Assembly (NCBI GenBank): GCA_017993055.1
Contig: JAGONM010000020.1
Span: 4,075-68,074 of the forward strand
Direction: 5' to 3'
Length of the DNA: 64,000 nt
DNA from: Armatimonadota bacterium
Lineage (GTDB): Bacteria; Armatimonadota; UBA5829; DTJY01
Below, piece by piece: positions 8,220-59,666 of this stretch (within the stretch, counting starts at the first letter, position 1; every line of letters starts with the position of its first letter). The notes under the pieces are model-generated. The model was not told the DNA's origin, searched no databases, and was given only the letters and a program-made list of their open reading frames with translations. The translations under genes and the position numbers were made by a program.

Positions 8220-8268
8220 AGGCCCCATATGTCCCATCCGTCCCATCCGTCTAATAGGACGAATGGGC
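8220..8268. repeat. Family B array of 9-bp periodic ATGGGAC/GTCCCAT units
   Basis: ggccccatatGTCCCATccGTCCCATccgtctaataggacgaATGGGCCtag. Fills the whole 49-nt spacer between the MDR stop and the SDR start. Confidence 0.55.
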
Positions 8269-9972
8269 CTAGCCGGCCATCACCCTCAGCAGCTCCGCCT
8301 CCGCCTCGCGGTTCCAGAACATGCCGTCGGTGAGTTTCGCGTAGACCGTCGGCAGCTTGTCCTTCAGATCGGGCACCGCCGTCAGCGGGAGGTCCTTGAT
8401 CTGCGGATAGATCACGACCTTGCCGGGATACGTCCCTTCCTTCGCCGCCTTCATGCCCTCCCACGACGCCTCGATCCCGCCGATCGCCGCCACCGACGTG
8501 TTTGTCGAGATCTTGCCCGACTCGGCCGCGTGGAGCGTGTCGAGCATGTCGCTTACCTTCGAGCCGCTGCTGCCCACGAACCGGACGTTGCTCATGAAGA
8601 CGCCGCTCAGGTCCATGCTCACGATCGTGCCGATCGGCACTCCCGCGAAGATGTTCATCAGGCCCTCGTCGGCGAGGTATCCCACCGCCTGCTCGATCAA
8701 TGCAGGCACGGGCGCGAGCATCACGATGTCGTCGAAGCAGTTGCCGTCCGTGAACGCCTCGATCAGCTTGTCGAAATCGTCCGCGCTCATCTCGTTCGGG
8801 TTCACGATAAGGAGCTCGATGCCGCGCCTCCGGGCTATCGGCTCGAACCGCTCGCGCAGGCTGTTCAGGCGCGCGGTGTCAATATCGGTGGCGAGCACCT
8901 TCTTCGGGCCGTCCTCCATTTCGAGCGCGCGCGGGAGGTGCATCTGCCCCATCGGTCCGCCCGTGCCTACGAACCACGCCGTCCCGCCGGCTCTCAACTC
9001 GCTCGGCATGCGGACCGGCTCGTAAGCGGATCCGATGTGCCTGCTCATCGTGCCGATGTAGGAGTGGTTCCAGTAGTGGACCTTGCCGACGTCTATGTTG
9101 ATCGGGCGGGTGAGCGGCTCCTCTGAGACGATGTTCATGATCCCCTGCTTGCCGAGGAGCGTCGCCGCCTTCTCGATCACATCCGGGTTCGCGCCGAGCA
9201 CGATTATGTCGTCGAAGCCGCCGTGCTTCTGCTCGAACGCCTCGAAGTCAATGGACTCGAAGGCGTCGGTCTCCCTCAGCTTGAAACGGCCGGCCTCCGA
9301 CCAGAACTTGAGCTGGTCCATCATCGGCCAGTCGAGTTCCGTCGCGACCACCAGCTCGGGCTCCACCTCGAAGTCGAGCGCGTAGTCGCCGTCGTCCATC
9401 GCCGCGCCGATGATCCAGAGCTTCCCGCCGGGCTTGATTGACTTCCGGCGGGTTATCTTGTAGCTCGCCACGACGCAAGCCCAGGGCTCGGCGAGAGCGG
9501 CCTCGGCGTATCCGGTCGAGTCGGCCATAGGTAGCAGGTAGCATCCCTCGTCGCCGTCGAGCATCTCCTTGCCGATCACCTGGTACTGGGTCTGCGCGCC
9601 GGGGAGGACGTACCCGAAGGCCATGCTCACGCCGTTCACGAAGACGTCGGCCTGGACGGTGAACCGCTGGCCGATCTTGAACCGGTCCGCCACCTTCTCG
9701 CCGACGCCCACGACGGTGACCGCCGCCTCGTGGCCGAGCGTAACGGGGTCATTCACCATATCGCGCCCGGTGATCCGGGGGTGCAGGTTGCCCTGGTTGA
9801 TCACCTTGATGTCGCTGAAGCAGATGCTCACGGCATCCACCCGGACCAGAAGCTCCTCCGGCCCGTACTCCGGCATCGGGTGCTCAACCGGCTTCCCGTC
9901 CTTGCCGAAGTTCTCCAGCCCCGCGCCGTAGAGATACCAGGTCAGTATCTTATCAGGAAGTGTATCGCTCAT
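8269..9972 (-). CDS. Zinc-binding alcohol dehydrogenase (MDR) family protein with C-terminal extension
   Basis: GHEAAVTVVGVG zinc-ADH signature in the N-terminal half. 567 aa. Confidence 0.5.
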   Translation of the reverse strand: MSDTLPDKILTWYLYGAGLENFGKDGKPVEHPMPEYGPEELLVRVDAVSICFSDIKVINQGNLHPRITGRDMVNDPVTLGHEAAVTVVGVGEKVADRFKIGQRFTVQADVFVNGVSMAFGYVLPGAQTQYQVIGKEMLDGDEGCYLLPMADSTGYAEAALAEPWACVVASYKITRRKSIKPGGKLWIIGAAMDDGDYALDFEVEPELVVATELDWPMMDQLKFWSEAGRFKLRETDAFESIDFEAFEQKHGGFDDIIVLGANPDVIEKAATLLGKQGIMNIVSEEPLTRPINIDVGKVHYWNHSYIGTMSRHIGSAYEPVRMPSELRAGGTAWFVGTGGPMGQMHLPRALEMEDGPKKVLATDIDTARLNSLRERFEPIARRRGIELLIVNPNEMSADDFDKLIEAFTDGNCFDDIVMLAPVPALIEQAVGYLADEGLMNIFAGVPIGTIVSMDLSGVFMSNVRFVGSSGSKVSDMLDTLHAAESGKISTNTSVAAIGGIEASWEGMKAAKEGTYPGKVVIYPQIKDLPLTAVPDLKDKLPTVYAKLTDGMFWNREAEAELLRVMAG

Positions 9973-10051
9973 ACTCGTGCTCCTACTCGTGATCGTACTC
10001 GGCGGCCGGTCCGACGGTCATGAATGTGCTCCACTCGCAGCACCGTCCAGT

Positions 10052-10150
10052 CCTGAGTGCGCGCTCTGGCGCGTGTATCGAAGGACGGCCTCCTGCAGCA
10101 AGAGCGCCCTTCGATACATGCCGTCATTCACCGGCATGCTCAGGGCTGTC
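10052..10150. repeat. Family R110 structured intergenic repeat (full copy)
   Basis: CCTGAGTGCGCGCTCTGGCGCGTGTATCGAAGGACGG...CCCTTCGATACATGCCGTCATTCACCGGCATGCTCAGGG, nested inverted repeats. Homologous copies at 62339-62450, 17528-17580 and 53159-53190. Confidence 0.6.
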
Positions 10151-10167
10151 GGTTACAGTTCCCCGCG

Positions 10168-10935
10168 CTAAAGGTTCTCTATCAGCTTCTTCCGCTGGAT
10201 CTCGTCCGGGCGCGTGCGGATGCGCTCCACCGTCTGCTCGCTCATGTAGTTCGGCCCGCCGAACGCAAGCGTCCCCGCCAGCACCTTCGCCGTCTTGTCC
10301 CACATCGCCGTGATGCTCTGGACTTCCTTCGCGGTCGCCCCGAGCGCGATCAGGCCGTGGTTCTGCATCAGGATTGCCTTCGGGCGTTCCCCATGCTCGC
10401 GGATGTAGTCCGTCACGACCGACTTGATCTTCCGCGCCAGCGTCACGCCCGGATCGGTGAACTCCACGTGCGCCGGGGCCGCCCCGCAGCACACGACCTC
10501 GTCCGGGAACAGCCGCCCCTGCGTCATGTCGCGCCACCCCTTCGAGCAGAGGATGCCGTTCACCGAGATCGGGTGCGTGTGCCCCACGAAGCTCACGCCG
10601 GGGATGCTCAGCAGGTAGCCGTGGAAGACGGTCTCGATCGAAGGGAGCAGCTTGCCGTCCGGGTCGACCATCGCCGCCCGGAGGTTCGCCTTGATCTCGT
10701 CGTCGGTCAGCTCCGGGCCGTCGAGCATCCGCAGGACCTTCGGCGCGCTGACCTCGACCAGCCCCTCCTCCTCGATCGTGCCGAGTTGGGTGCCGCTCGC
10801 CTTCACGTAGAACGTGTCGTCGTCTATCTTGGCCGAGGTGTTCCCCTCGCCCAGTATCACCAGCCCCCTGCGCTCCTTGCCGAGCCAGTGGGACATCTCG
10901 ATAAGCTGTTTCAGTGCTTCTTTCTTCGAACCCAT
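10168..10935 (-). CDS. Class II aldolase/adducin family protein (fuculose- or rhamnulose-1-phosphate aldolase-like)
   Basis: GEGNTS, HTHP and NHGL motifs of class II aldolases. 255 aa. Confidence 0.65.
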   Translation of the reverse strand: MGSKKEALKQLIEMSHWLGKERRGLVILGEGNTSAKIDDDTFYVKASGTQLGTIEEEGLVEVSAPKVLRMLDGPELTDDEIKANLRAAMVDPDGKLLPSIETVFHGYLLSIPGVSFVGHTHPISVNGILCSKGWRDMTQGRLFPDEVVCCGAAPAHVEFTDPGVTLARKIKSVVTDYIREHGERPKAILMQNHGLIALGATAKEVQSITAMWDKTAKVLAGTLAFGGPNYMSEQTVERIRTRPDEIQRKKLIENL

Positions 10936-11091
10936 ATCAGGTGCAGACCCCCCTCGCGTTTACAAGACGGGGTATTATATCACGGAAACGCCCCTGCGAC
11001 CAGAAGGCGACGTGACTTCCTGCTCGTAGTCGTACTCGAAGGGCTTCGCCGCCCGGAAGTCGAACGTACACAGTGAAGAAGGGCGGTCAAC

Positions 11092-12831: not shown

Positions 12832-12873
12832 TATTCGAGCGTCCCGATTCTTCAACTTGGCGATACTGCCGAT

Positions 12874-12953: not shown

Positions 12954-12991
12954 CCGCGAAACTGAACTTGATCGAGTAACAGGTGCAAGAT

Positions 12992-14029: not shown

Positions 14030-14067
14030 GTCATAGGTCCCATGTGTCTCATATGTCTTATGGTCCG
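14030..14067. repeat. Family B-like 9-bp periodic array
   Basis: CATAGGTCC CATGTGTCT CATATGTCT TATGGTCCG. Lies immediately after the 14026 stop and about 65 nt upstream of the TPP riboswitch. Confidence 0.5.
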
Positions 14068-14134
14068 CTGCCTCCTCGCGAAGTTTGACAGTCCCCGGTA
14101 CGGGTGGTATACTCCGAATAGACGCATGAACACA

Positions 14135-14235
14135 GCCGCTAGGGGTGCGTGGCGGAAACGCCCGCTGAGAGTCCCGCTCGACGGGACAACCCTCTGAACC
14201 TGATCCCGGATAATCCCGGCGTAGGGAAGCGGACG
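14135..14235 (+). promoter_or_regulatory. TPP (thiamine pyrophosphate) riboswitch / THI-box upstream of thiC
   Basis: aGGGGTGCgtggcggaaacgcccgCTGAGAgtcccgctcgacgggacaACCCTCTGAACCTGATCCCGGATAATCCCGGCGTAGGGAAgc matches the conserved THI-element cores (GGGGUGC, CUGAGA, ACCUGAUC.GGAUAAU.CCGGCG.AGGGA). Confidence 0.85.
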
Positions 14236-14446
14236 CGACGATCAGACGCCGTGTGCCCGCGATGAGGCCCACGGCGTTTTGTATGCGGAGAACACGGAAG
14301 CACGGAGGGAAACGGAACACACCGAGTTTCGCGAGGAAGCCATCAAAGCAGGAAAGGGAACTCCCGGTTTCCTGATACGGCACCCTTTTCCGTGACCTCC
14401 GCTTCCATCCGTTCAATCCGCGTTCTCCGAAAGAACGGTGAGGCAT

Positions 14447-16887: not shown

Positions 16888-16926
16888 CGGTCAGACATGT
16901 CCGACGCGTCCGACCGGTCCAGACCG
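16888..16926. repeat. Family A array: four GTCNGAC heptamers at 9-bp spacing
   Basis: GTCAGAC(16890) GTCCGAC(16899) GTCCGAC(16908) GTCCAGAC(16917). Starts 2 nt after the thiL stop and overlaps the ATG of tsaE. Confidence 0.6.
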
Positions 16927-18481: not shown

Positions 18482-18533
18482 GATGATGCCTCCTCTATCT
18501 ACTTCGACGCATCGGCGGCGAAACCTCGTGCTG

Positions 18534-18566
18534 CGTCTGATCCGACGCGTCCGACCGGTCTGATAC
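18534..18566. repeat. Family A array in a divergent intergenic region
   Basis: gcGTCTGATCCGACgcGTCCGACcgGTCTGAtac, between the amidohydrolase start (18481) and the URO-D-like start (18618). Confidence 0.55.
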
Positions 18567-24072: not shown

Positions 24073-24177
24073 GATTGTCTTCTCCTTCGGTGGTGCGTGA
24101 CCACGCTGATTGATGATTGCGCCGGTTTCCCCGGCAAGTTGTTCTTACCCCGCCGGGTCGGTATCTACACATGGGGC

Positions 24178-24243
24178 GGGCGGGAGTACAACTCCCGCCC
24201 TGGCATGCTCTCTACGTTGGGGCAGGAGTTGTACTCCTGCCCC
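24178..24243. repeat. Family H hairpins x2 (GGGnnGGAG-pentaloop-CTCCnnCCC)
   Basis: GGGCGGGAG-TACAA-CTCCCGCCC (24178-24200) and GGGGCAGGAG-TTGTA-CTCCTGCCCC (24219-24243). Confidence 0.6.
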
Positions 24244-25753: not shown

Positions 25754-25789
25754 GAGTCCCATCGGTCGCATGAGTCCTATAGGACCTAT
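25754..25789. repeat. Family B array
   Basis: GAGTCCCAT CGGTCGCAT GAGTCCTAT AGGACCTAT, 9-bp period, between the sulfatase stop and the Gfo-B start. Confidence 0.55.
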
Positions 25790-27171
25790 GCGCCCAGCGA
25801 CTTCTGCCACTTCTGTACCGCAGCTGTCAATTCGGATGTCAGTTCCGGATGCTCGTCGGCGAGATTCGTCCTCTCGCCCGGATCGGCCTCCAGGTCAGAC
25901 AGGTGTACGTCATCCGCCGCGCCTTTCTCGAAGTCAATCCTGCCGTTGAGCACCAGCTTCCACTTCCCCTGGCGGACGGCGAGCTGGCCGTTGTAGTCCC
26001 AGAAGACCCGCTCGTGCGGGCTCGGAGCACCGGATGTCACCATCGGAAGGACGTCGGCCCCGTCAACGTCCTCCGCTTCTCCGCCCGCAATCCCGAGGAA
26101 CGTCGGGAAGATGTCCATCATCGCGCCGACCTTCCCGCAGGTCTGCCCCGCCTCGATGCGCGCGGGCCAGGTCATGATCGCCGGCATGCGGATTCCGCCC
26201 TCGAACAGGCTGCCCTTTTGCCCGCGGAAGATGCCCGTGCTGCCGCCGTAGTACGGGTCCTCCGTGCCGTCGAGCCAGTTGCGGGTCTCCACGGACGGCC
26301 CGTTGTCGCTGGAGAAGAAGATGACGGTGTCCTCGTATTGCCCCGACTTCTTGAGCGCCTTGATTGTCTCGCCGACGCCGTCGTCCACCGCGGAGATCAT
26401 CGCGGCCATGATCCGCTTGTCCCACGGCAGGTCGGGGTAGCGGTCGAGGTACTTCTGAGGCGCGTGCATCGGGTAGTGCGGTGCGCTGTACGGCACGTAC
26501 AGGAAGAACGGCTCTTCGCGCTTCTGCTCGATGAACTTGACCGACTTTTCGGTGATGGCCTCGGTCAGATACCTCCCGTTGTCCCATACCTCCCGCTCGT
26601 TGTGCCAGAGATCATGGGTCGGGTTGTTGCCCTTGCCGACCCCCCAGTAGAAGATGTGCGAGTAGTAGTCTACGCACCCGGCCAGGAAGCCGTAGAACTC
26701 GTCGAACCCGTGGTCGTTCGGGCGGCATCCGCCCGCGAGGCCGAGGTGCCACTTGCCGAACATCGCCGTCCGGTACCCGAGCGGCCTGAGCGCCTTCGCA
26801 ATCGTGGTCTGATCGGGCTTGAGGCCGGGTGTGTCCCTCCGGCCCGCGAGGATGCTCGTCACCCCGGCGTTCTGGGGGTACTTTCCGGTCAGCAGCGACG
26901 CCCTCGACGGCGAGCAGACCGGGCAGTTCGAGTACCAGTTCGTGAACCGCGCGCCGTCCTTCGCCAGCGCATCGAGGTGCGGCGTCTTGATGTACTCCGA
27001 GCCGAAGCAGCCCAGGTCGCCGTACCCGAGGTCGTCGCAGTAGATCACGACGAGGTTCGGCTTCTTCCCGCGCTCACTCGCGCCGATCGCCTCAGACATA
27101 CTCATCCCTCCCAGCGCGGCCGCCGCCGCCGATGTCTTCAGGAACGTTCTTCTGTCCAAAGTCATCCCCAT
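25786..27171 (-). CDS. Cys-type sulfatase with Tat signal
   Basis: MGMTLDRRTFLKTSAAAAALGG Tat signal. CSPSRASLLTGKYP sulfatase signature. The ORF-track N-terminal Arg-rich 200 aa is spurious. Confidence 0.85.
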   Translation of the reverse strand: MGMTLDRRTFLKTSAAAAALGGMSMSEAIGASERGKKPNLVVIYCDDLGYGDLGCFGSEYIKTPHLDALAKDGARFTNWYSNCPVCSPSRASLLTGKYPQNAGVTSILAGRRDTPGLKPDQTTIAKALRPLGYRTAMFGKWHLGLAGGCRPNDHGFDEFYGFLAGCVDYYSHIFYWGVGKGNNPTHDLWHNEREVWDNGRYLTEAITEKSVKFIEQKREEPFFLYVPYSAPHYPMHAPQKYLDRYPDLPWDKRIMAAMISAVDDGVGETIKALKKSGQYEDTVIFFSSDNGPSVETRNWLDGTEDPYYGGSTGIFRGQKGSLFEGGIRMPAIMTWPARIEAGQTCGKVGAMMDIFPTFLGIAGGEAEDVDGADVLPMVTSGAPSPHERVFWDYNGQLAVRQGKWKLVLNGRIDFEKGAADDVHLSDLEADPGERTNLADEHPELTSELTAAVQKWQKSLGA

Positions 27172-27201
27172 CCTGTCCGACCGGTCAGACAAGTCGGACT
27201 C
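27172..27201. repeat. Family A array bridging a stop codon and a start codon
   Basis: GTCCGACcgGTCAGACaaGTCGGAC at 9-bp spacing. Overlaps the stop of the 27185 gene and ends 1 nt before the sulfatase ATG (27171). Confidence 0.6.
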
Positions 27202-29116
27202 CCTGCGAAATCCACACGGGGCTGAGCCAGGCGATCTGGTTGTCCTCCTGGGTGACCCTGATGTAGTAGAACGTGAACGGCGCCGCCGAGTACTCTGCAG
27301 GCGGCAGGTTGATCCCCCCGAGCGGCTCGGAGTCGAGCCATTCGAACTCCGCGTCCGGTCCGTCCGGACGGACCGTGTGGACATCGGCGTTGTTGCGGAC
27401 GATCTCGATCGTCTTGATCTTGGACGTGCCGTGGACAGACACCTTGATCCGCCGCTCGTCCGCGAGTCCCGGGTGCTCCGAGAGGCTGACCTCCGAGCCC
27501 ATCGGGTGGCCGCTGACCGAGAAGTCCGCGATGATCCGCGCTCCTGTCGTCCCATAGCAGCGCCGGTCGTAGAGAGCCTCGAATATCGCCTCGCGAGTGT
27601 TCTCACGCGCGTACACCGCCGCCAGTCCGCCGGTGTACGTGCCCGTCGGTTTGATGCGGACCGTGCCGTCGCTCGGATGGCCTGAGTGGTCGTCGCTCGC
27701 GGCGATGAAACCGACGCGCCACCCCATCGCCAGCGCGCGCTGGACGTAGCCGAGCGGGTTGATCCCCGAGTTCGGGTTGCGCTCATTCACCGGCGACCCC
27801 GGAAGGATGTTCCCGTCCTCGATGCTCCGCTCGGAGCACCCCCAGTAAGAGTATATCTCGACGAGCCGCTCCTTCGAGGGGTTGTGGTCCTTCCAGTCGT
27901 TGTGGTTGCCGATGTGCGCCGGGTGGTGCGGGATGACGAGCGCCTCCTCTTCCTTGAGCGCTCGGAAGAGGTCCGGCGGACTGGGATAGGCGTCGTCGTC
28001 CGACCGGTACATCGGCCGCCGGTCGCGCAGGTAGTAGACGTTCCGGTCGCCGTCGCCCCTCTTTCGCCACTTTGCCCACTCGTAACCGAGGAACGCGGTG
28101 AACCGCCCCGGCTCATTGTATCTTGCGACGGCCTCCTGGCTGAGCGCCCATATCTCGTCGGTGATCTGCTCGCCGTGATCATGGTCGGCGGTCGAGCCGA
28201 AGTCGATCGCGCACTCGTCGCGCATCTGCGAGAAGTACCGGTCGAGCGAGCCGGTGCCGTCGGAGACCTGCGTGTGCCCGTGGATCGAGCCCCAGAGCAC
28301 TTGCGGCGCGCCGTCCGCGGGGACTCGGATCGGGTTCGCGGTTGCCCTGAAGCCGTTCGACGTGTCCGCGACCTCGAGCCGGTAGACGCCCTCTCCCGGC
28401 AGGGCGATCCCTTCGAGTCGGCAGCAGTTCGATCCCTCGACCGCGATGCGCTCTGCGGGGATCTCCAGACCGTCCAGCTGGACGAGCAGCTCTCCGGGAG
28501 CGGCGCAGGCGAGGTTGTAGTTCTTGTCCTCGGGCCTGACCAGCAGGGCAATGCTCTCACCGTGAGAGGCGGTGCTGGGCGCGTGAACGCGGATCGAGAT
28601 CGGATCGCTCCCGGAGACGTCCATCATGCAGAGGCCGATCAGTTCCTCCGGCCGTTCGCCGTAGAGCAGGGGATGCCTCAACTCCGTGCCCGCCGGGACC
28701 TTGTGCAGGAGGAAGAATCTGCTTGAGACCGAGAACTTCGGCGCTGGGATTCCCGCAGGCCCGCCGAGTTCGGCGCGCAGCCTGTCGCCCTGCTTGAGGC
28801 CGACCGGCGGCGTCTCGAAGCAGAACACTCCCCCGTCGTCGGTCGCCCCCCTCGGTGTGAGCGTTCCGGACTCCGAGCGGAGCGACAGATAACCCTCGGC
28901 GGATTCGTCCTGCGCCTGGAAGCCCGGCCAGCGGCTCGCCCCGTTTCGCCCGCCGTGGACGTGCAGCCACAGGTCCTCCCCCGGCGAGACGTCCTGCGCA
29001 AGCACGAACGAGAGCGTCCATGATCCTCGCTCGTCCGCCTTGGCACAGGGTGGATCGGCGGCGCACATCTCGATGTATTCAGGAACTCTCAGGGGGCGAC
29101 TTGGTTTGTTGATCAT
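27185..29116 (-). CDS. DUF3604-like PHP-type metal-dependent phosphoesterase family protein
   Basis: LWGSIHGHTQVSDGTG and ADHDH motifs (PHP-like) in the C-terminal half. 643 aa. Confidence 0.4.
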   Translation of the reverse strand: MINKPSRPLRVPEYIEMCAADPPCAKADERGSWTLSFVLAQDVSPGEDLWLHVHGGRNGASRWPGFQAQDESAEGYLSLRSESGTLTPRGATDDGGVFCFETPPVGLKQGDRLRAELGGPAGIPAPKFSVSSRFFLLHKVPAGTELRHPLLYGERPEELIGLCMMDVSGSDPISIRVHAPSTASHGESIALLVRPEDKNYNLACAAPGELLVQLDGLEIPAERIAVEGSNCCRLEGIALPGEGVYRLEVADTSNGFRATANPIRVPADGAPQVLWGSIHGHTQVSDGTGSLDRYFSQMRDECAIDFGSTADHDHGEQITDEIWALSQEAVARYNEPGRFTAFLGYEWAKWRKRGDGDRNVYYLRDRRPMYRSDDDAYPSPPDLFRALKEEEALVIPHHPAHIGNHNDWKDHNPSKERLVEIYSYWGCSERSIEDGNILPGSPVNERNPNSGINPLGYVQRALAMGWRVGFIAASDDHSGHPSDGTVRIKPTGTYTGGLAAVYARENTREAIFEALYDRRCYGTTGARIIADFSVSGHPMGSEVSLSEHPGLADERRIKVSVHGTSKIKTIEIVRNNADVHTVRPDGPDAEFEWLDSEPLGGINLPPAEYSAAPFTFYYIRVTQEDNQIAWLSPVWISQGVRLV

Positions 29117-29139
29117 TCATCCAACCTCGAGTATCTGTT

Positions 29140-29619
29140 CCGGGCGACTGAAGTCACGGCAACAAAGGCGCGAAGTCCACCTCCGTGGACTGAGGTATCC
29201 AGTGTCCGAAGGGACACTTCGTGCAGTGGTTGCCGCGGTTTCAACCGCCGGGTTTCATCTCACTTACTTTCTTGTACGGCTCCGGCACGGTGACGAACCT
29301 GAATCCCCGCGCCTTCAGCGCCGCCGACGTGGCAGATGCATGTATGTACCGGGCGACTGAAGTCACGGCAACAAGGGCGCGAAGTCCACCTCCGTGGACT
29401 GAGGTATCCAGTGTCCGAAGGGACACTTCGTGCCGTGGTTGCCGCGGTTTCAACCGCCGGGTTTCATTTCACTTACTTCCTTGTACAGGTCCGGCACCGT
29501 GACGAACCTGTCACCCTCAGCTATGTACCGGGCGACTGAAGTCACGGCAACAAGGGCGCGAAGTCCACCTCCGTGGACTGAGGTATCCAGTGTCCGAAGG
29601 GACACTTCGTGCCGTGGTT
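29140..29619. repeat. Tandem triplication (about 209 + 179 + 92 bp) of the 3' coding end of gene 29620-31323 plus a two-hairpin 3'UTR element
   Basis: Unit is ccgggcgactgaagtcacggcaacaagggcgcgaagtccacctccgtggactgaggtatccagtgtccgaagggacacttcgtgc... plus gene-3' remnants encoding LKARGFRFVTVPE(L/P/D)YK(E/K)VSEMKPGG. Hairpins GTCCAC-CTCC-GTGGAC and AGTGTCC-GAAG-GGACACT. Confidence 0.7.
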
Positions 29620-31323
29620 TCAACCGCCGGGTTTCATCTCACTTACTTCCTTGTACAGCTCCGGTACCGTGACGAACCTGAATCCCCGCGCCTTCAGTTC
29701 CGGGATCAGCGTTTTCAGCGCCGCGGGAACCGACGGTCCGCCGACGTGGCAGATGCACGTGCTGTAACCCGTCCGATCGGCGATCTCCGCCATCGCAAGC
29801 ACCCGAGCCCGCACGCCCTCGACCTGCCGGTCGTCGAGGAACAGGTCCTGCTGGAGGCACGGTACGCCCATCGCCCGCGCGACGTTCGCTCCGATCGCGA
29901 CCGGAGACGTGTTCGAGTCGTAGAACATCAGCCCGTGTTTCTTCGCCACTGAGAGAACGCTCTTCATCGTCTCCGGGTCGCTCGTCACCTTCGACCCGCG
30001 GTGGTTGCTGATTCCGACCTCGTGCGTCACCAGCACCATCCAGCTCTCCAGAAGCTCCCTGATCTCAGACTCGGTCTGCCCGACGGTGATCTCCTCGCTG
30101 CGGTAGTTCGCCTGCCCGAGCGCCTCCATCGGCGCGTGCAGGAAGATCGCGCAGCCCGCCGACCTGATCGCCTCGACGCAGGCCGGGGTCGCCCACGGCA
30201 TCACCGCGAACGTCATCGGTATCCCCAGGTCGAGAAGCGGCTTCACCTGCTCGACCTCCCGCCCATCGTCCACCATGATCGCGAGCAGTTTCTCCGGCCC
30301 GGTCCACTTCGAGGCAAACGGCTCCAGTCCCAGCCCACCGCCGCCGACACCCAGGTATGAGGAATAGAGCGGTGCCCCGTCGGACGTGTTCAGCCGCGCG
30401 GTGAAGTAGTCCCTGGAGCCGTTGTGCTCCGTCTTGTAAGCCTTTGCTGTCACGGGGAAGTCGTCGGAGCGCGTGAACCCCGTCACATATACCGCGCTGC
30501 TCCGGTCAACCGATACCGCGTCGGCGGTGTCTTCCGCCTTCCCGCCGAGCAGAGCGATCCAGGCGAGCTTCCCGGGGCTGTCAACCCGCGCTACGAAGCA
30601 ATCCGCGCCGGGGGAGCATACCGTGCCCGACAGGAATGCGTTGTTACTCGAGTCGTACATCACCCGCTTGCCTCTCGCGAGCGGCCACCCGCGTCCGAGC
30701 GCTTCCGAGAGAAGCTTCCCGGCCTCGTCCGGCGTCAGGCTCTTCGCGGCGGATTCGATCTTGACGCGGGTGATGTCAGTTCCCACTGCGGCGCAGGTGA
30801 CCTTGCCGCCGTCCACCGTGAATGTCAGGGTCACACCCGGCCACAGGTCCCGGTATGCGACTCCCTTGAACGTTGGGACGTCGGCAGTCCACTTCGAAGG
30901 ATCGTTCCCGATGATGTACCGGGCCTTCGCGGGCTGCTCCTCGAGACCCTCTATCTTCGCGCCGGAGCCCGTCTCCCGGAAGCTGATGCGGACGGTCTCG
31001 ACCTCAACCGCGGGGATCGGCCTTCGCCTCTCCGCGACCGCGTCGCGCAGGTCGGCGGGGACCTCCGAGTCGTTCTTGGCCGGGGAGGCGGCGCCGGTCT
31101 TGCGGCAGAGGGTGATCGAATCCCTGGTGACGAGCGCAGATCCTTCCGGCCCCGGGATGATGAACAGAACGTCCCTGTCTGATTGGCCCTCGTTCCGGAT
31201 GACCGGAGGCGAGAGCGGCGGGAGCGCGACCTGAGCCGGCCGTTGGCCGTACTCCTGGGCTGCCGACGGGATGGGGACAAAGAGCAATGCGAAGAGCAGC
31301 AGTCGTGCGCGGTGACCCGTCAT
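29620..31323 (-). CDS. Secreted protein: SBBP beta-propeller repeats plus divergent polysaccharide deacetylase (YibQ-like) domain
   Basis: YVTGFTRSDDFPVT SBBP-like repeat. C-terminal LAIMVDDG...MTFAVMPW...ICHVG resembles PF04748. Signal peptide. ATG 31323 with AAAGGTAAG RBS; ORF-track GTG at 31329. Confidence 0.45.
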   Translation of the reverse strand: MTGHRARLLLFALLFVPIPSAAQEYGQRPAQVALPPLSPPVIRNEGQSDRDVLFIIPGPEGSALVTRDSITLCRKTGAASPAKNDSEVPADLRDAVAERRRPIPAVEVETVRISFRETGSGAKIEGLEEQPAKARYIIGNDPSKWTADVPTFKGVAYRDLWPGVTLTFTVDGGKVTCAAVGTDITRVKIESAAKSLTPDEAGKLLSEALGRGWPLARGKRVMYDSSNNAFLSGTVCSPGADCFVARVDSPGKLAWIALLGGKAEDTADAVSVDRSSAVYVTGFTRSDDFPVTAKAYKTEHNGSRDYFTARLNTSDGAPLYSSYLGVGGGGLGLEPFASKWTGPEKLLAIMVDDGREVEQVKPLLDLGIPMTFAVMPWATPACVEAIRSAGCAIFLHAPMEALGQANYRSEEITVGQTESEIRELLESWMVLVTHEVGISNHRGSKVTSDPETMKSVLSVAKKHGLMFYDSNTSPVAIGANVARAMGVPCLQQDLFLDDRQVEGVRARVLAMAEIADRTGYSTCICHVGGPSVPAALKTLIPELKARGFRFVTVPELYKEVSEMKPGG

Positions 31324-31518
31324 TGACACTTACCTTTCCGGAAGGCAAAGAGGAACGCGGGGATGAATCGTCCCGCGCTCCTCCCTATGTTCGCTACCCG
31401 CTCTACGGTTTCCTCATCGCGGAAGAAGCACGATCTGCTCAGTAGGGGCGAAGCATTGGCTATCGGGCTCAGAGAGCCATCCGCGCCAAACGCCAATGCT
31501 TCGCCCCCACAGTGACCT

Positions 31519-32820: not shown

Positions 32821-32856
32821 CATAGGTCCCGTGGGACTCATGGGCCCCATGCCGGC
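32821..32856. repeat. Family B array
   Basis: CATAGGTCC CGTGGGACT CATGGGCCC CATGCCGGC, between the esterase stop (32866) and the fucosidase start (32802). Confidence 0.55.
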
Positions 32857-38023: not shown

Positions 38024-38059
38024 GCCCGACGCGTCCGACGTGTCTGACGTGTCGGAGAC
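38024..38059. repeat. Family A array (four units, 9-bp spacing)
   Basis: CCCGAC gc GTCCGAC gt GTCTGAC gt GTCGGAGAC, 20 nt upstream of the RBS/TTG start at 38004. Confidence 0.6.
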
Positions 38060-50194: not shown

Positions 50195-50230
50195 GTCAGA
50201 CGAGTCATAAATATCGGACGGGTCTGACTA
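50195..50230. repeat. Family A array (degenerate)
   Basis: GTCAGAC ga GTCATAA at ATCGGAC gg GTCTGAC with 9-bp spacing. Overlaps the GH2 stop (50228-50230) and lies 12 nt upstream of the 49416 gene start. Confidence 0.45.
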
Positions 50231-52920: not shown

Positions 52921-53003
52921 TTGGGACTCCTCTGGTGGTTGCTGGGGAGATTGTACTCCGTGGGGCGAGCGCGCGCAAGGGGGCGGCTCGCCCCTGCTCG
53001 CAA

Positions 53004-53036
53004 TCGTACTCGTACTCCTACTCGTACTCGTACTCG
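53004..53036. repeat. (TACTCG)n hexanucleotide microsatellite, about 5.5 units
   Basis: cgTACTCGTACTCcTACTCGTACTCGTACTCGaa, about 90 nt upstream of the GH2 start. Confidence 0.7.
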
Positions 53037-55569: not shown

Positions 55570-55610
55570 GTATCACCTCGTCTGTTTGGGTCTCGGGTCC
55601 AGGAGCCGTC

Positions 55611-55657
55611 AGTCTCGAGTAGGCTTCTCCGGAAACCGTATCGAGAGACGGTCATGC
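55611..55657. repeat. Family D repeat (second copy)
   Basis: GTCTCGAGTAGGCTTCTCCGGAAACCGTATCGAGAGACGGTCA. Confidence 0.6.
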
Positions 55658-55759
55658 AGTCACGATGGTATCACGTCCGATCGGGAGGGTCAAACCGCGG
55701 TTGAACCGAGGCCACGGAGTGTGGGACAATGGCCTGGAGACTAAGCACGGAGCCCTGCC

Positions 55760-56785: not shown

Positions 56786-56868
56786 TTCGGCGCGCACCGG
56801 TCCGACCGTCATGCTGGACTCGTTTCAGCATCCGGACCGCGGACCCCGAGCCAAGTTCAGGGTGACGC
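56768..56868. repeat. Family C structured repeats (two tandem units) between convergent genes
   Basis: gCCGTCAtgccgaaCCTGAttcggc... aCCGTCAtgctggaCTCGTTtcagcat... Also carries a single GTCCGAC unit (56801). Confidence 0.5.
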
Positions 56869-56869
56869 C

Positions 56870-58534
56870 TCAGGCCTCTTCCGCCGCCAGGTTCGTCTTC
56901 GACGCAGGGAAGAATAGGCTGACGATGTAGGCCGAGATCAGGCTCGCGGCGAGTGCGGCGGGCAGGATGAACGTGAACGACATATAGACAGGCTGGTAGT
57001 TCGCCTGGTGCAGGACCGCCGCGTGGTACCAGGTCGTGATCTCCGTGTAGTAGGAGATTAGTCCCGCCACCAGGAAGCCGACGACGATCGAGACCCACGC
57101 GCCCTGCCGGTTGCACCGTTTCATGAAGAACGCCATGATGAACAGGGCCGCGAGCGGGGCGACGAAGAACCCGTTGATCTTCTGCGCGACTTCCATGAAG
57201 TTGCCGGGGATCAGCCTCTGCAGGAAGCTCACCCCGATGCTGGCCGCGCCGATCACCACGGCCATGATCTTCGCGCGCCTGAGCTGGGCGTCCGGGTCGA
57301 GGCCCCGGGCGAACACCTTCTCGAAGTCAACCATCAGCACCGTGCTGATCGAGCTGATGCCGGACGAGATGCTCGACATCGCGGCGGCGAAGAGGGCCGC
57401 GAGCAGGAGCCCGGAAACTCCCGGAGGCAGTACGTGCGCGATGAACCAGGGGAACACCTTGTCCGCCGCGTGGGTCAGGGTGTAGTACTGCTTTGCCATC
57501 CCCCCGAGCGACATCCAATGCTGAAGTTCGTCGGGCTTGACGTCGGGCTTCAGGACGTTCAGCGCCGGAACGACGTTAAGGTTCGCCTGGAAGAACCCGA
57601 GCAGGGCAAACCCGCATAGCGCGAGCACCGCTCCGAGCACGAGGTTGGCGAAGGAGTTCGTCAGGAAGCTCTTCCTGGCGACGGCCGCGTTTCGGGTGCT
57701 CAGGTAGCGCTGGATCGCCATCTGGTCGGAGCTGGCGGTGCAGATCCACCAGATCACGTAGTACACGATGATCCCCAGAACGGTGATGCGCTGAGACATG
57801 TCGGTGAGCGGCCTCGTGATCGCGCTGGGATACGCGGGGACCTTCGGCCAGTTCAGCAGCGGCTTGACCTCCGGGCTGCCGAGGTCCGGCCACCATCCGG
57901 TGAAGCTGTGCGCGTGAACCATCGCATAGATGGTGACCAGCGCCGCCCCGACTATCAGTATGACCGCCTGGGTGGAGTCCGTGATCATCACGGCGCGGAT
58001 GCCCCCGGCTGTCGTGTATACGGTCGTCACGACGCCGACCGCGATGAGGATGTACTCGATCGGCCAGCCCGTCATCGCGGCCAGGGCGACGCTGCAAGTG
58101 TAGATCACGAGCCCCGACCACGCGAGCCTGGTCAGCACGAACAGTACGGCGGCGGCCTTCCGGATGCCCGGGCCGAACTGCGCCTCCAGAAGTTGGTAGC
58201 CGGAGACGATTCGGTGGGCCATGATGCGCGGGATGATCACGTAGCCTATCGGGACGAACGCGATCCAGACGGCCAGCGACCCCCACAGCACGCCGTACCC
58301 GTTCTTGATGATCTCGCCGGGGGTCGTCAGGTAAGTGATCGTGCTGACGAGGGTCGCCATCGTCGAGAGTCCGACGATGAACCACGGCATGCTCCGCCCG
58401 CCGAGGTAGTACTCCTCGGTGCTGGTCTGCCTGCGCGAGCAGATCCACCCGATGCCGAGCATCGCTGCCCCGTATGCAAGGACGACCAGGTAGTCCCAGA
58501 TCGTCAGTCCGCCGATTACTGTCTCAGATGACAC
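56870..58534 (-). CDS. Sodium:solute symporter (SSS/SLC5) family transporter
   Basis: Polytopic membrane protein, 550 aa, with an SSS-like TM pattern. GTG 58534 with GGAGG RBS is preferred over the ORF-track TTG at 58549. Confidence 0.6.
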   Translation of the reverse strand: MSSETVIGGLTIWDYLVVLAYGAAMLGIGWICSRRQTSTEEYYLGGRSMPWFIVGLSTMATLVSTITYLTTPGEIIKNGYGVLWGSLAVWIAFVPIGYVIIPRIMAHRIVSGYQLLEAQFGPGIRKAAAVLFVLTRLAWSGLVIYTCSVALAAMTGWPIEYILIAVGVVTTVYTTAGGIRAVMITDSTQAVILIVGAALVTIYAMVHAHSFTGWWPDLGSPEVKPLLNWPKVPAYPSAITRPLTDMSQRITVLGIIVYYVIWWICTASSDQMAIQRYLSTRNAAVARKSFLTNSFANLVLGAVLALCGFALLGFFQANLNVVPALNVLKPDVKPDELQHWMSLGGMAKQYYTLTHAADKVFPWFIAHVLPPGVSGLLLAALFAAAMSSISSGISSISTVLMVDFEKVFARGLDPDAQLRRAKIMAVVIGAASIGVSFLQRLIPGNFMEVAQKINGFFVAPLAALFIMAFFMKRCNRQGAWVSIVVGFLVAGLISYYTEITTWYHAAVLHQANYQPVYMSFTFILPAALAASLISAYIVSLFFPASKTNLAAEEA

Positions 58535-58556
58535 GTATACCTCCGCCAAACCGCAG

Positions 58557-58592
58557 AATGGGACGCATGGGACCCATAGGACCTATGCGCTG
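58557..58592. repeat. Family B array
   Basis: AATGGGACG CATGGGACC CATAGGACC TATGCGCTG. Overlaps the stop of the 58583 gene and lies 20-60 nt upstream of the symporter start. Confidence 0.6.
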
Positions 58593-59488
58593 ACATCCAC
58601 CCACCGGCCGCCCCTCGCCTTCGATTCCTGCGCGGCCACGATGACCGAGACCATCTCGAGCGTCTCCTCGTGCGGGAAGGGCGGGATGCCGCTTTCTGCG
58701 AACCTCACGAAGTCCTCGAGTTGGGCCTTGAACATGCTGAACGTGTCGAAGCTGTCCACTCGGACCCACTTATCGGCCCCGTAGAAGTTGAACGCGATCG
58801 GCCCGGCAAGCCCGGTCACGACCTCCAGTTGTGCCGACCGCCCGTCGAGCCAACTGAGCTGAACCTGCGCCCGGCTGCCCGGGCCTACATCCCTCACGGC
58901 CTTGAAGCCCCCGCCCATCACCGCGCGGACCCCCTCCAGGATGTGGATGCCGTAGGTCCGCCAGTACTTCGGGGAGACCGCGCTCGCGTACGTCCACTCG
59001 TCACCCGCGAGGGACAGAAGTTCCATGCAGTACCGGAAGCACGAGGTGGAGACGATCGGCTGACCGCCGGCATACCGTTCGCGGAAGGCGGCGAGGTCGC
59101 GCGCGTTGTCGGTCAGCGGCTTGTCTATGAAGACCGGGATGCCATTGTCGAGGAACGGCGCGGCCGTCGCGAGGTGTTTCTCGCCGTCGTCGCGGGCGAG
59201 CAGCAGGGCGTCCACCTCGCCGATCATGTCCTTGAGGTTCGGCGCTACCTTCTCGATCCTCGAGGCGCGGGCGACGTCGCGGGAGACCGCCTCGTCCTGG
59301 GTCCAGATATGCGTTACCCGCGCGTCCTCGATGCCGAAGTCTCTCTCCGGGCGCGCGCCGAGATATTGCGGGATGACCGGGAACGGACAGGAGTCCATCG
59401 CCGCGCGGTCGTAGCCGTTGATGATCGCCGCCCAGGAGTACGGGTGGCCGTTTCCTTCGCTCAGTCCGACGATGCCGAGTTTGAGCAT
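58583..59488 (-). CDS. Gfo/Idh/MocA family oxidoreductase
   Basis: MLKLGIVGLSEGNGHPYSW..., NAD-binding N-domain, 301 aa. Confidence 0.6.
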   Translation of the reverse strand: MLKLGIVGLSEGNGHPYSWAAIINGYDRAAMDSCPFPVIPQYLGARPERDFGIEDARVTHIWTQDEAVSRDVARASRIEKVAPNLKDMIGEVDALLLARDDGEKHLATAAPFLDNGIPVFIDKPLTDNARDLAAFRERYAGGQPIVSTSCFRYCMELLSLAGDEWTYASAVSPKYWRTYGIHILEGVRAVMGGGFKAVRDVGPGSRAQVQLSWLDGRSAQLEVVTGLAGPIAFNFYGADKWVRVDSFDTFSMFKAQLEDFVRFAESGIPPFPHEETLEMVSVIVAAQESKARGGRWVDVSA

Positions 59489-59498
59489 CTCACACCTC

Positions 59499-59666
59499 TA
59501 TGGGACATATGCAACGTTCGGGCTGGAGTTGCACTCCAGCCCGCGATACCAGTTGGGGAGTTCAACTCCCCATCCAGCCGCGCGGGAAGGAGTACAACTC
59601 CTTCCCGAACGTGTGTCTATCGGTAGGGCGTACAACATGGGACTCATGGGACGGATGGGACGGCTG
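59499..59666. repeat. Composite intergenic region: one ATGGGAC unit, three Family H hairpins, then an ATGGGAC x3 array
   Basis: TATGGGACATATG; GGGCTGGAG-TTGCA-CTCCAGCCC; GGGGAG-TTCAA-CTCCCC; GGGAAGGAG-TACAA-CTCCTTCCC; ACATGGGAC TCATGGGAC GGATGGGAC GGCTGTCAG. Confidence 0.65.

What the first reader, a model, noticed from the sequence alone, without database searches (positions are those of the whole stretch)
8220..59666. Family B: 9-bp periodic ATGGGAC / GTCCCAT arrays in intergenic spacers, creating spurious MGxMGxM ORF starts
Six loci carry 3-4 tandem 9-nt units built on ATGGGAC or its near-palindromic relatives ATAGGTCC and GGGCCCAT: 8220-8268, 14030-14067, 25754-25789, 32821-32856, 58557-58592 and 59635-59666, plus a single unit at 59499.

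Like Family A, they fill short spacers between co-directional genes, abutting the upstream stop and the downstream RBS. The array at 14030 sits where the promoter for the TPP-riboswitch/thiC transcript must lie.

The embedded ATG triplets produce artefactual N-terminal extensions such as MGRMGHMGPM and MGPMSPTGPM in ORF callers. The 9-bp phasing is shared with Family A and both families contain GAC/GTC, so they may be two faces of one system. Candidates are a dedicated DNA-binding protein, an alternative sigma-factor promoter architecture, or a nucleoid or structural element.
Basis: seen in the sequence. Interest (0 to 1): 0.75.

Follow-up and report, generated by a model that had tools for sequence, protein, structure and literature searches.

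The report
Solo repeats of a four-helix-bundle gene
The six arrays are real, and they are gene-less copies of a 9-bp phased repeat found in many bacterial phyla that normally flanks, and sometimes sits inside, a small uncharacterised 'four-helix-bundle suffix' gene; this gives the repeat a first candidate protein partner and argues against a promoter role.

Summary
Allowing up to 2 mismatches to ATGGGAC at 9-bp phase recovers exactly the six reported loci. No other period from 6 to 11 gives any, and shuffles give 0.3. All six lie in the 9% of the window that is non-coding.

The window comes from an Armatimonadota MAG. The same unit, a 7-bp core AT[G/A]GGAC plus 2 free bp, occurs in at least 10 phyla, often as inverted arms next to stop codons. 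Orthologous spacers in relatives hold other short-period arrays instead, so these are not conserved operators or promoters. One-armed arrays show no strand bias (16:16).

The main new result concerns 80 metagenome loci chosen only for a 'four helix bundle suffix' protein (TIGR04258/TIGR02436, S23p/Avd-like). In them, 43 of 45 ATGGGAC arrays lie within 350 bp of that gene. A sister subfamily carries GTC[G/A]GAC nonamers, the window's 'Family A'. Those repeats also occur in frame inside the gene as SDK/SDR tripeptides, which may explain the 9-bp period.

Best reading: the window's arrays are solo copies of a repeat partnered with this gene, probably read by the protein.

Still inferred or untested:
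- binding of the repeat by the protein;
- any mobility of the cassette;
- any effect on the neighbouring genes.

No such gene lies in the window.

The parts
8220..8268 (.). Family B array between the ADH-like gene (8269-9972, minus) and the SDR gene (7404-8219, minus). It is two-armed: GTCC-type units followed by ATGGGAC units on the transcribed strand.
   Evidence: Sequence. Phased scan. The RNA fold of 8215-8275(-) is -29.3 kcal/mol, z = -5.3, with 0 of 200 shuffles as stable. Flanking genes.
14030..14067 (.). Family B array (GTCCCAT, GTCTCAT, GTCTTAT units) directly after the stop of the URO-D-like gene. It lies about 20 bp upstream of the -35 box of the thiC leader promoter.
   Evidence: Promoter 14085-14113. 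TPP riboswitch 14131-14244 at 68 bits. The fold is not significant (z = -1.8).
25754..25789 (.). Family B array that includes the TAG stop of the sulfatase gene (25786-27786, minus). It is partly palindromic (ATAGGACCTAT).
   Evidence: Fold z = -2.6.
32821..32856 (.). Family B array between the SASA esterase gene and the alpha-L-fucosidase gene (both minus). It ends about 15 nt before the RBS.
   Evidence: The fold is not significant.
58557..58592 (.). Family B array that includes the TAG stop of the Gfo/Idh/MocA gene. It lies upstream of the RBS of the SSF transporter gene (minus).
   Evidence: The fold is not significant (z = -0.7). The same array is present in an independent assembly of the same population, L207.
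59635..59666 (.). One-armed Family B array (three perfect ATGGGAC units on the plus strand, so GTCCCAT on the transcript) directly after the TGA stop of the SDR gene 59667-60449.
   Evidence: There is no fold (z = +0.6).
59499..59507 (.). Single Family B unit abutting the RBS of the Gfo/Idh/MocA gene.
16888..16926 (.). Family A array (GTC[A/C]GAC core plus 2 bp, 9-bp phase). This is the same kind of element in its second dialect.
   Evidence: TRF. Sequence. Phased scan.
18530..18563 (.). Family A array in a divergent spacer, ending directly before a TACAAT -10-like hexamer.
   Evidence: Sequence.
38024..38056 (.). Family A array directly upstream of an RBS.
50196..50228 (.). Short, partly inverted Family A-like array between two minus-strand genes.
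   Evidence: Sequence. Coordinates were read off that output and are approximate to a few bases.

Best explanation
The six loci are short, gene-less ('solo') copies of a phased nonamer repeat found in many phyla. The repeat is a 7-bp core AT[G/A]GGAC plus 2 unconstrained bp. Its home context is a small gene for a 'four helix bundle suffix domain' protein (NCBIfam TIGR04258 plus TIGR02436, Pfam PF05635, with the fold of the S23p proteins encoded in 23S rRNA intervening sequences). PF05635 has been likened to Avd, the accessory protein of diversity-generating retroelements.

Shown: the repeat flanks that gene on one or both sides. In some members it runs in frame through a surface loop or the C-terminal tail. 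That may be why the period is 9, which equals 3 codons. A sister subfamily of the protein carries GTC[G/A]GAC nonamers, which is the window's Family A.

Inferred: the heptamer at fixed 9-bp register is the recognition unit of this probably oligomeric protein, or of whatever machinery spreads the gene-plus-repeat cassette. Solo arrays would then relate to the gene as REP sequences relate to their RAYT transposase.

In this Armatimonadota window the arrays sit in transcribed spacers. The two-armed ones (8220, weakly 25754) can form hairpins. They are not promoters or canonical terminators.

Untested: binding, mobility and any effect on the neighbouring genes.
For: 1. The same unit is far commoner than chance and spans many phyla. 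The hits come from Planctomycetota, Verrucomicrobiota, Lentisphaerota, Kiritimatiellia, Hydrogenedentota, Acidobacteriota, Chloroflexota, Armatimonadota, Methylomirabilota, Desulfobacterota and others.

2. Constraint is position-specific. In TRF-detected arrays, adjacent units are 85-98% identical at core positions but only 50-54% at the two spacer positions.

3. Association with the gene. Four of 120 array loci hold the gene, each directly beside arrays. In the converse test, 80 metagenome loci were chosen only by homology to the protein. There, 43 of 45 strict arrays lie within 350 bp of the gene ends, which is about 20% of the sequence. Unit density is roughly 20 per kb in the 90 nt upstream (my division of the counts) against 0.53 per kb further than 300 bp away. 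A motif-free lag-9 autocorrelation gives 0.378 upstream and 0.349 downstream, against about 0.265 at other lags, and controls show no such peak. Twenty of 66 loci have a strongly 9-periodic window beside the gene, against 0 of 108 control windows.

4. Protein subfamily and repeat core change together. The L298-like subfamily is about 50% identical to the first. It carries GTC[G/A]GAC or CGGAC nonamers in 3 of 5 distinct loci and no AT[AG]GGAC arrays. The 80 subfamily-1 loci carry no GTCnGAC arrays.

5. The repeat also occurs in frame inside the gene. Examples are SDLSDRSDRSDK in L310, SDRSDKSDKSDK plus a C-terminal DKSDRSDLSDKSDK in L299, and long SDx or THx runs in P0429, P0439 and P0362.

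6. Protein and repeat share a taxonomic range, and the protein is unusually conserved. It is 72-77% identical between Chthoniobacterales, Caldilinea, Acidobacteria, Blastocatellia and Schlesneria.

7. Family assignment. TIGR04258 E-values are 1e-20 to 5.5e-25, above the cut-off. The AlphaFold model has pLDDT 85 and its best solved folds are the S23p-family structures 2GSC and 2RLD. One member adds a topoisomerase-type zinc ribbon.

8. Literature precedent. The S23p ORF in the Coxiella 23S rRNA intervening sequence is preceded by 2-4 tandem GACAGAT heptamers of variable copy number (PMC4990558). PF05635 has been likened to the DGR accessory protein Avd (PMC10053308).
Against: - No four-helix-bundle-suffix gene lies in the window or in the fetched loci of its relatives. 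Whether this genome encodes one could not be tested.
- No binding has been shown. Co-variation of protein and repeat could reflect common descent of a cassette rather than recognition.
- Where both flanks of the gene carry strict arrays, their relative orientation is not uniform: three pairs are inverted, five are same-sense, and many units are palindromic and so ambiguous. A clean terminal-inverted-repeat model is therefore not established.
- Upstream and downstream flanks of the same gene do not pair better than flanks from different loci (p = 0.12). This control is weak because all flanks share the repeat.
- The ascertainment pattern fixed the core and freed the spacer, so the core-versus-spacer contrast is partly biased for one array per locus.
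- Adjacent spacers are identical in 39% of cases against 11% expected, so slippage also shapes the arrays.
- Other short-period families (the window's GAGTAC hexamers and heptamers elsewhere) showed no neighbouring PF05635 gene: 0 of 72 adjacent ORFs. The model does not cover all short-period arrays.
Confidence: 0.55

Rival explanations
1. The arrays are RNA-level structural elements, like REP sequences or ORF-less rRNA intervening sequences. The inverted arms fold into long hairpins in the operon transcript. These hairpins would protect upstream mRNA from 3' exonucleases or be cut by RNase III, giving differential expression within operons. On this view the sequence of the unit is secondary. 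This rival is partly compatible with the best explanation.
For: - 57% of arrays in genome loci have an inverted partner within 150 bp.
- Hairpin elements lie a median of 15 bp from a stop codon and are mildly enriched in convergent spacers: 15 of 47, against a baseline of about 22%.
- The 8220 array folds at -29.3 kcal/mol, z = -5.3.
- Five of five relatives have some short-period array, as a hairpin in four of them, in the SDR-to-Gfo spacer, although the unit differs between them.
- Coxiella IVS stems, which include tandem heptamers, are cut by RNase III (PMC4990558).
Against: - Four of the six window arrays do not fold better than shuffles, and 59635 has no fold at all.
- Spacer dinucleotides in the two arms are complementary in only 37% of cases, against 26% by chance.
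- A purely structural role does not explain a 7-bp core that is 85-98% conserved across phyla.
- It also does not explain the association with one gene family.
- No U-tract follows the hairpins.
Confidence: 0.22
2. The arrays are neutral microsatellite-like by-products. Replication slippage and template switching in quasi-palindromes would amplify arbitrary local seeds in spacers, with no reader and no function.
For: - Adjacent spacers are identical more often than expected, 39% against 11%.
- Copy number varies from 3 to 19 units.
- Orthologous arrays in relatives look like drifting versions of one another: TnTAGAC in L121 and L124 against TGCAGAC in L205.
- Many different heptamer units exist in the same genomes.
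Against: - It cannot explain the identical core in at least 10 phyla at roughly 400 times my rough chance estimate.
- It cannot explain core conservation alongside free spacers.
- It cannot explain the roughly 40-fold concentration beside one gene family.
- It cannot explain the pairing of repeat dialect with protein subfamily.
Confidence: 0.08
3. The arrays are promoter architecture or UP-like elements for sigma-70 or an alternative sigma factor. This was one of the first reader's candidates.
For: The 14030 array lies just upstream of a near-consensus promoter. A Family A array abuts a TACAAT hexamer at 18563, and a GAGTAC array precedes TTGCGC-17-TACAAT near 53000.
Against: - Orientation is mixed in the window and 16:16 elsewhere.
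- Most arrays sit in 40-60 bp intra-operon spacers, with no room for a promoter before the RBS.
- There is no promoter-like match at 58400-59800.
- Arrays are not retained at orthologous positions.
- Elsewhere arrays lie closest to gene 3' ends.
Confidence: 0.03
4. The arrays are read by a different, universal housekeeping protein. One candidate is MraZ; from my memory of the literature, E. coli MraZ boxes are direct TGGGN repeats at 10-bp spacing. Another is a single-strand binder such as cold-shock proteins, CsrA or Rho.
For: The core contains TGGGA. A universal, conserved reader would explain the identity across phyla. CSD proteins bind about 7 nt. MacGregor proposed S1, Csp or CsrA for the TAACTGA repeats (PMC4679880).
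Against: - The period is 9, not 10.
- Inverted arrangements are common, unlike what I recall of MraZ operators.
- The absence of strand bias (16:16) argues against single-strand RNA binders.
- No mraZ gene is present in any held locus, so its promoter could not be checked.
- None of these candidates explains the link to the four-helix-bundle gene.
Confidence: 0.04

Closest known systems
REP/BIME elements and their RAYT transposases, including REPINs
   Same: Both are short extragenic repeats present in many solo copies, often as inverted pairs next to gene ends. Both have a single-gene partner that is itself flanked by the repeats. Turnover between related genomes is fast.
   Different: REPs are single imperfect palindromes of 20-40 bp with a GTAG or CGTC tag (PMC3733652). 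They are not phased tandem nonamers. The partner here is an S23p/Avd-like helical bundle with no known catalytic activity, not a Y1 HUH transposase. Mobility has not been shown.
23S rRNA intervening sequences carrying an S23p ORF (Coxiella, Leptospira)
   Same: The protein fold family is the same (PF05635/TIGR02436). The Coxiella ORF is preceded by tandem short repeats (GACAGAT, 2-4 copies, variable between strains). The element is bounded by inverted repeats that form a stem, and ORF-less versions exist (PMC4990558).
   Different: The arrays here are not in rRNA. No rRNA is found in the window or in any held locus. The unit is 9 bp, not 7. The protein has the extra TIGR04258 suffix domain. 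RNase III cleavage is untested here.
Cyanobacterial STRR heptamers and the Beggiatoaceae, Cyanobacteria and Bacteroidetes TAACTGA direct repeats
   Same: These are also short tandem intergenic repeats, 2-6 copies or more, often next to start codons. An identical unit occurs in distant phyla, and function is unknown after decades (PMC4679880; bioRxiv 10.1101/2022.06.06.494920).
   Different: Those have 7-bp contiguous units rather than a 7+2 structure, and different taxa. No associated gene family has been reported for them in the papers I read.
Ring or oligomer proteins that read phased short repeats (TRAP with GAG/UAG repeats, omega repressor heptads, MetJ metboxes). This comparison is from my own knowledge, not from a tool.
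   Same: One short subsite per subunit, arrays of 3-11 subsites, and direct or inverted arrangements are tolerated (omega).
   Different: There is no homology to any of these. The oligomeric state and nucleic-acid binding of the suffix-domain protein are only inferred from its relatives, the S23p pentamer and Avd.

Membership tests
Nonamer repeats associated with four-helix-bundle-suffix genes (defined here) | 7-bp core AT[G/A]GGAC (dialect B) or GTC[G/A]GAC (dialect A) repeated at a strict 9-bp phase with free 2-bp spacers | tested here: met
   for the window. for the family logo.
Nonamer repeats associated with four-helix-bundle-suffix genes (defined here) | A TIGR04258 gene adjacent to the array | tested here: not met
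   tblastn and a family HMM against all ORFs of the window found nothing. The window copies are therefore solo. About 97% of array elements in the 120 genome loci are also solo.
Nonamer repeats associated with four-helix-bundle-suffix genes (defined here) | The same genome encodes a TIGR04258 protein somewhere | not testable with these tools
   Only this 64-kb window of the MAG is accessible. Armatimonadota do carry the arrays elsewhere (Chthonomonas, L083).
REP/BIME | A single imperfect palindrome of 20-40 bp with a terminal GTAG or CGTC tag | tested here: not met
   The units are tandem nonamers. CGTC arises in only about 31% of units, where the first spacer base is G. Four of six arrays do not fold.
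23S rRNA intervening sequence | Insertion in helix 25 or 45 of 23S rRNA | tested here: not met
   Rfam finds only a TPP riboswitch in the window. No rRNA signature strings occur in any held locus.
23S rRNA intervening sequence | A stem of terminal inverted repeats cut by RNase III | not testable with these tools
   Inverted arms are common, but cleavage needs an experiment.
Sigma-70-type or alternative-sigma promoter | Two hexamers at fixed spacing, in a fixed orientation upstream of a transcription unit | tested here: not met
   and the orientation data.
Intrinsic terminator | A GC-rich hairpin followed by a U-tract on the transcribed strand | tested here: not met
   The 3' flank profile shows no T run.
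STRR / TAACTGA-type heptamer repeats | Contiguous 7-bp unit | tested here: not met
   The period is strictly 9. Period 7 gives no array for this core.
Any curated Rfam RNA family | A covariance-model match at the gathering score | tested here: not met
   The only matches are sub-threshold hits to generic miRNA-precursor hairpin models.
Coding collagen-like or tripeptide repeat | The array lies inside a long ORF with coding-type composition | tested here: not met
   The window arrays lie in spacers. Many viral-contig hits to the same pattern are coding repeats, so the bare pattern alone does not diagnose this element.

The most novel reading that the evidence does not exclude
The most novel reading my evidence does not exclude is a previously undescribed partnership that spans many phyla. 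An oligomeric S23p/Avd-like four-helix-bundle protein would read phased nonamers, one subunit per unit, with protein subfamilies matched to repeat dialects. The gene-plus-repeat cassette would seed hundreds of solo arrays per genome. Those arrays would then act as binding platforms or landing pads in operon spacers. If true, this would give a first function to the large S23p/'four helix bundle' family and a model for STRR-type repeats.
Probability: 0.3. Interest if true: 0.85.

Novelty: new variant of a known kind. Interest (0 to 1): 0.7.

Why it matters
Short tandem extragenic repeats (STRR, TAACTGA) and the S23p/'four helix bundle' proteins have both lacked a function for decades. This finding links a specific repeat, in two dialects, to a specific and very widespread protein family. 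That family has 865 clusters at 50% identity with E <= 1e-30 and 3240 with E <= 1e-10.

The link turns both questions into a direct binding experiment.

There is also a practical use. These arrays create false start codons and false N-terminal extensions (MGxMGx, SDKSDK, GTYGTY). They probably also break assemblies: long arrays sit at contig ends in L055, L085, L089 and L110. Recognising them should improve annotation of MAGs from the PVC phyla, Acidobacteriota, Armatimonadota and others.

Tried and rejected
- **G-quadruplex.** ATGGGACnn repeated four times fits G3N6. I rejected this because ATAGGAC units are interchangeable with ATGGGAC (13% A at position 3) and Family A has no G-runs.
- **Single-strand RNA binders (Csp, CsrA, Rho rut sites).** Rejected as the primary reader because one-armed arrays show no strand bias, 16:16.
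- **MraZ boxes.** No mraZ gene is present in any held locus. The period differs and inverted pairs are common. It is kept only as a minor rival.
- **MITE with target-site duplications.** No duplications were seen by eye at hairpin flanks. Loop length (2-148 bp) and loop sequence are not conserved.
- **Terminal inverted repeats enclosing the gene.** The duplex-energy test of same-gene against different-gene flanks was uninformative (p = 0.12), and the orientation of flanking arrays is mixed.
- **One S23p-like gene for every short-period family.** None of 72 ORFs next to heptamer or octamer arrays hits PF05635, so this is not supported in the sample.
- **Phage vehicle.** Only one relative of the gene was found in 2.9 million viral contigs. 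Most viral hits to the DNA pattern are coding repeats.
- **Defence system.** No PADLOC match.
- **Sequence search of solved structures.** Only coiled-coil noise.
- **Literature.** Searches for the motif, for nonamer repeats in PVC phyla and for TIGR04258 found no description of these arrays.
- **My crude gene caller.** It gave 50 false 'inside ORF' calls until the arrays were masked. Spacer-class statistics are therefore approximate.

Full report

Reading the six loci shows the described units. A mechanical scan for at least 3 heptamers within 2 mismatches of ATGGGAC at 9-bp spacing returns exactly the six reported loci. It returns nothing at periods 6, 7, 8, 10 or 11, and one hit at period 12. 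Shuffled sequence gives 0.3 on average. With up to 1 mismatch the count is 4 observed against 0.

The bare heptamer count alone is unremarkable: 14 observed against 8.6 expected. The phasing carries the signal. A GC3-based gene map puts 9.2% of the window outside genes, and all six arrays lie there, with a chance probability of about 6e-7. The MGRMGHMGPM and MGPMSPTGPM extensions are genuine artefacts of mechanical ORF calling.

**2. Context in the window**

The window is 64% GC. A protein 100% identical to the window's Gfo/Idh/MocA protein is recorded from an Armatimonadetes MAG.

The flanking genes encode sugar-degradation enzymes and transporters: SDRs, Gfo/Idh/MocA, a sulfatase, a fucosidase, a SASA esterase and an SSF transporter. 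The arrays fill spacers between co-directional genes, and several contain the upstream stop codon.

Orientation relative to transcription is not constant:
- GTCCCAT is on the sense strand at 14030, 58557 and 59635.
- The orientation is mixed, or ATGGGAC is on the sense strand, at 8220, 25754 and 32821.

Only 8220 folds convincingly as RNA (-29.3 kcal/mol, z = -5.3). 25754 folds weakly and 59635 not at all.

The 14030 array is not the thiC promoter. TTGACA-17-TATACT with a TG extension lies at 14085-14113, between the array and the TPP riboswitch at 14131-14244. No promoter-like or terminator-like site lies on the transcribed strand around 58557 or 59635.

**3. The motif is not lineage-specific**

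For 21 specified bases in about 1.2e12 positions I estimate roughly 0.3 by chance. The hits cover many phyla (listed in the For line), and in some genomes the density reaches 5-6 arrays per 8 kb.

Of these arrays, 57% have an inverted partner within 150 bp. The usual arrangement is ATGGGAC units, then a loop, then GTCCCAT units (96 arrays against 28 in the opposite arrangement). In viral contigs only 4 of 109 have a partner, and most of those hits are coding collagen-like or QMG-type repeats.

After masking the arrays, hairpin elements lie a median of 15 bp from a stop codon. They occur in tandem, convergent and divergent spacers at 24:15:8. One-armed arrays show no strand bias relative to flanking genes, 16:16. 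No curated Rfam family matches.

**4. What is constrained**

In arrays detected by TRF, which does not weight positions, adjacent units are 85-98% identical at the seven core positions and 50-54% at the two spacer positions. The logo is A98 T98 G86/A13 G95 G100 A98 C97 N N.

Spacers in opposite arms are complementary in only 37% of cases, against 26% by chance. Adjacent spacers are identical in 39% of cases, against 11% expected.

Slippage therefore contributes to array growth. But something reads the heptamer in a 9-bp register, and stem perfection is not what is conserved. One caveat applies: the ascertainment pattern fixed the core for one array in each locus.

**5. Orthologous positions**

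The SDR - Gfo/Idh/MocA - SSF gene order is conserved in relatives at 71-84% protein identity. Their spacers do not keep ATGGGAC arrays. They contain the following:
- L121 and L124: (TnTAGAC)n...(GTCTAnn)n hairpins.
- L205: (TGCAGAC)n hairpins.
- L122: 8-bp CTCCCATA arrays and 7-bp GTCTGCC arrays.
- L206: REP-like hairpins plus GATGGTT units.

Every relative has some short-period array in the SDR-to-Gfo spacer, a hairpin in four of the five, but the unit turns over. That rules out a conserved operator or promoter. It points instead to fast-evolving repeat families.

**6. The gene partner**

I looked for genes bracketed by arrays and found one family. In L080 (Chthoniobacterales) and L117 (Victivallales) a gene of about 200 codons lies between inverted ATGGGAC arrays. 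L102 and L061 (Schlesneria) have the gene, or a fragment of it, beside arrays.

The protein is a 'four helix bundle suffix domain' protein. TIGR04258 matches at E about 1e-22, and TIGR02436/PF05635 also match.

The converse test used 80 metagenome loci chosen only by homology to the protein:
- They contain 45 strict arrays in 280 kb. Of these, 43 lie within 350 bp of the gene ends.
- Unit density peaks in the 90 nt before the start and the 90 nt after the stop. It is 0.53 per kb further away.
- A motif-free lag-9 autocorrelation peak appears only in the flanks.
- Twenty of 66 loci have a strongly 9-periodic window beside the gene, against 0 of 108 control windows.

In several loci the start codon is itself the ATG of the next unit.

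**7. Two dialects, and repeats inside the gene**

The only viral relative, L298, is about 50% identical to the first subfamily and is preceded by GTCGGAC units. I sampled its subfamily, which includes a Lentisphaeria member:
- L310 has eight GTC[G/A]GACnn units upstream.
- L300 has CGGAC nonamers on both sides.
- L304/L306 and L299 have none in their flanks.
- This subfamily has no AT[AG]GGAC arrays, and the 80 subfamily-1 loci have no GTCnGAC arrays.

This core is the same as the window's Family A (16888, 18530, 38024 and about 50200).

The nonamers also run in frame through a loop and the C-terminal tail of the protein. Examples are SDLSDRSDRSDK, SDRSDKSDKSDK, DKSDRSDLSDKSDK, and up to about 30 SDx units in P0429. 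P0362 has a THETHATHLTH run. In-frame residence may explain why the period is a multiple of three.

**8. The protein**

The family is large and is not phage-borne:
- At least 585 relatives among 600 pattern matches in metagenome contigs.
- 8000 of 8000 scored candidates at E <= 1e-5.
- 865 clusters at 50% identity with E <= 1e-30, and 3240 with E <= 1e-10.
- Only one relative in viral contigs.

It is 72-77% identical across phyla. The AlphaFold model (pLDDT 85) is all-helical. Its best solved matches are the S23p-family structures 2GSC and 2RLD, with probability 0.95-1.0 but weak E-values. The sequence-only search of solved structures found nothing, and there is no PADLOC hit.

From the literature, S23p of Xanthomonas is a homopentamer. 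The S23p ORF of the Coxiella 23S rRNA intervening sequence is preceded by variable tandem GACAGAT heptamers, inside a stem cut by RNase III (PMC4990558). PF05635 has been likened to the DGR accessory protein Avd (PMC10053308).

**9. Interpretation**

Shown:
- The arrays are real.
- They belong to a 7+2 nonamer family found in many phyla.
- That family is tightly associated with one gene family.
- A second dialect, the window's Family A, is associated with a sister subfamily.
- The window copies have no such gene beside them.

Inferred:
- The protein, or a machinery acting with it, recognises the core in a 9-bp register.
- Solo arrays derive from, or are targets of, the cassette.
- Two-armed copies form hairpins in transcripts, as REP or intervening-sequence stems do.

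Not shown: binding, mobility, RNase III cleavage, or any effect on the neighbouring sugar-utilisation genes.

**10. Novelty**

I found no description of these arrays or of the gene-repeat link in the searchable library. The nearest analogues are:
- REP/RAYT;
- rRNA intervening sequences with S23p;
- STRR and TAACTGA heptamers, whose function is still unknown.

I class the finding as a new variant of a known kind, namely extragenic repeat families with a partner gene. I score interest fairly high because the finding offers a testable partner for two long-unexplained features.

Noticed in passing
window 59505-59625, also 24150-24235; L121 10907-11053; L206 1466-1699: A REP-like family of GC-rich hairpins, GGGnnGGAGTTG[T/A/C]ACTCCnnCCC, often flanked by CGAACGTT. 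The three copies at 59505-59625 nest into one 121-nt structure of -76.6 kcal/mol (z = -9.9). The family sits in different spacers in related genomes.
   Followed up: partly
window 9967-10001, about 11000-11025, 53004-53036, 62290-62309, 61418-61434: A third short-period family built on GAGTAC/GAGTAT hexamers (and AGGAGTC). Some copies overlap the RBS and start codon, and one lies upstream of a TTGCGC-17-TACAAT promoter-like site. No partner gene was found.
   Followed up: partly
window 29136-29689: Three tandem copies of a 166-nt segment, with start-to-start spacings of 209 and 179 bp and identities of 95% and 66% to the first copy. They duplicate the 3' end of gene 29620-31329 (C-terminal ...FVTVPELYKEVSEMKPGG). 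This resembles the triple duplication of a gene 3' end plus repeat hairpin seen in L113 3980-4780.
   Followed up: partly
window 14085-14244: A near-consensus extended -10 promoter (TTGACA-17-TATACT) followed by a TPP riboswitch (Rfam RF00059, 68 bits) ahead of thiC.
   Followed up: yes
L017 6229-6260, L069 786-816, L122 12685-12867; L030 4879-4914 and L122 9037-9061; L094, L108, L109: Other heptamer arrays recur across phyla. (CAATCCG)n occurs in Verrucomicrobiae, Blastocatellia and Armatimonadota. (GTGATGA)n occurs in Acidobacteria and Armatimonadota. (CGGTTTT)n hairpins occur in Thermoanaerobaculia. This suggests a shared vocabulary of short-period units beyond the nonamers.
   Followed up: partly
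L214 5044-5088(+) and 5160-5204(-): Two Acido-Lenti-1 RNA matches above the gathering score (RF01687, 40.5 and 46.2 bits), about 2 kb downstream of a four-helix-bundle-suffix gene.
   Followed up: no
L304, L306 (gene 1201-1791): One subfamily-2 four-helix-bundle-suffix gene lies directly downstream of cas1-cas2. It is surrounded by repeats of the type ATATAGTCTCCTTTTAAAACTCTACAAGCTCCAGC that look like CRISPR repeats, instead of nonamer arrays.
   Followed up: no
L117 603-1274; P0418: Some four-helix-bundle-suffix proteins carry a C-terminal topoisomerase-I-type C4 zinc ribbon (PF01396, E = 6e-9). This hints at nucleic-acid binding.
   Followed up: partly
L055, L085, L089, L110 (arrays at locus or contig ends); L056 757-925: Long arrays of 8-19 units sit at contig ends or span more than 150 bp, which suggests that they break short-read assemblies.
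   Followed up: no
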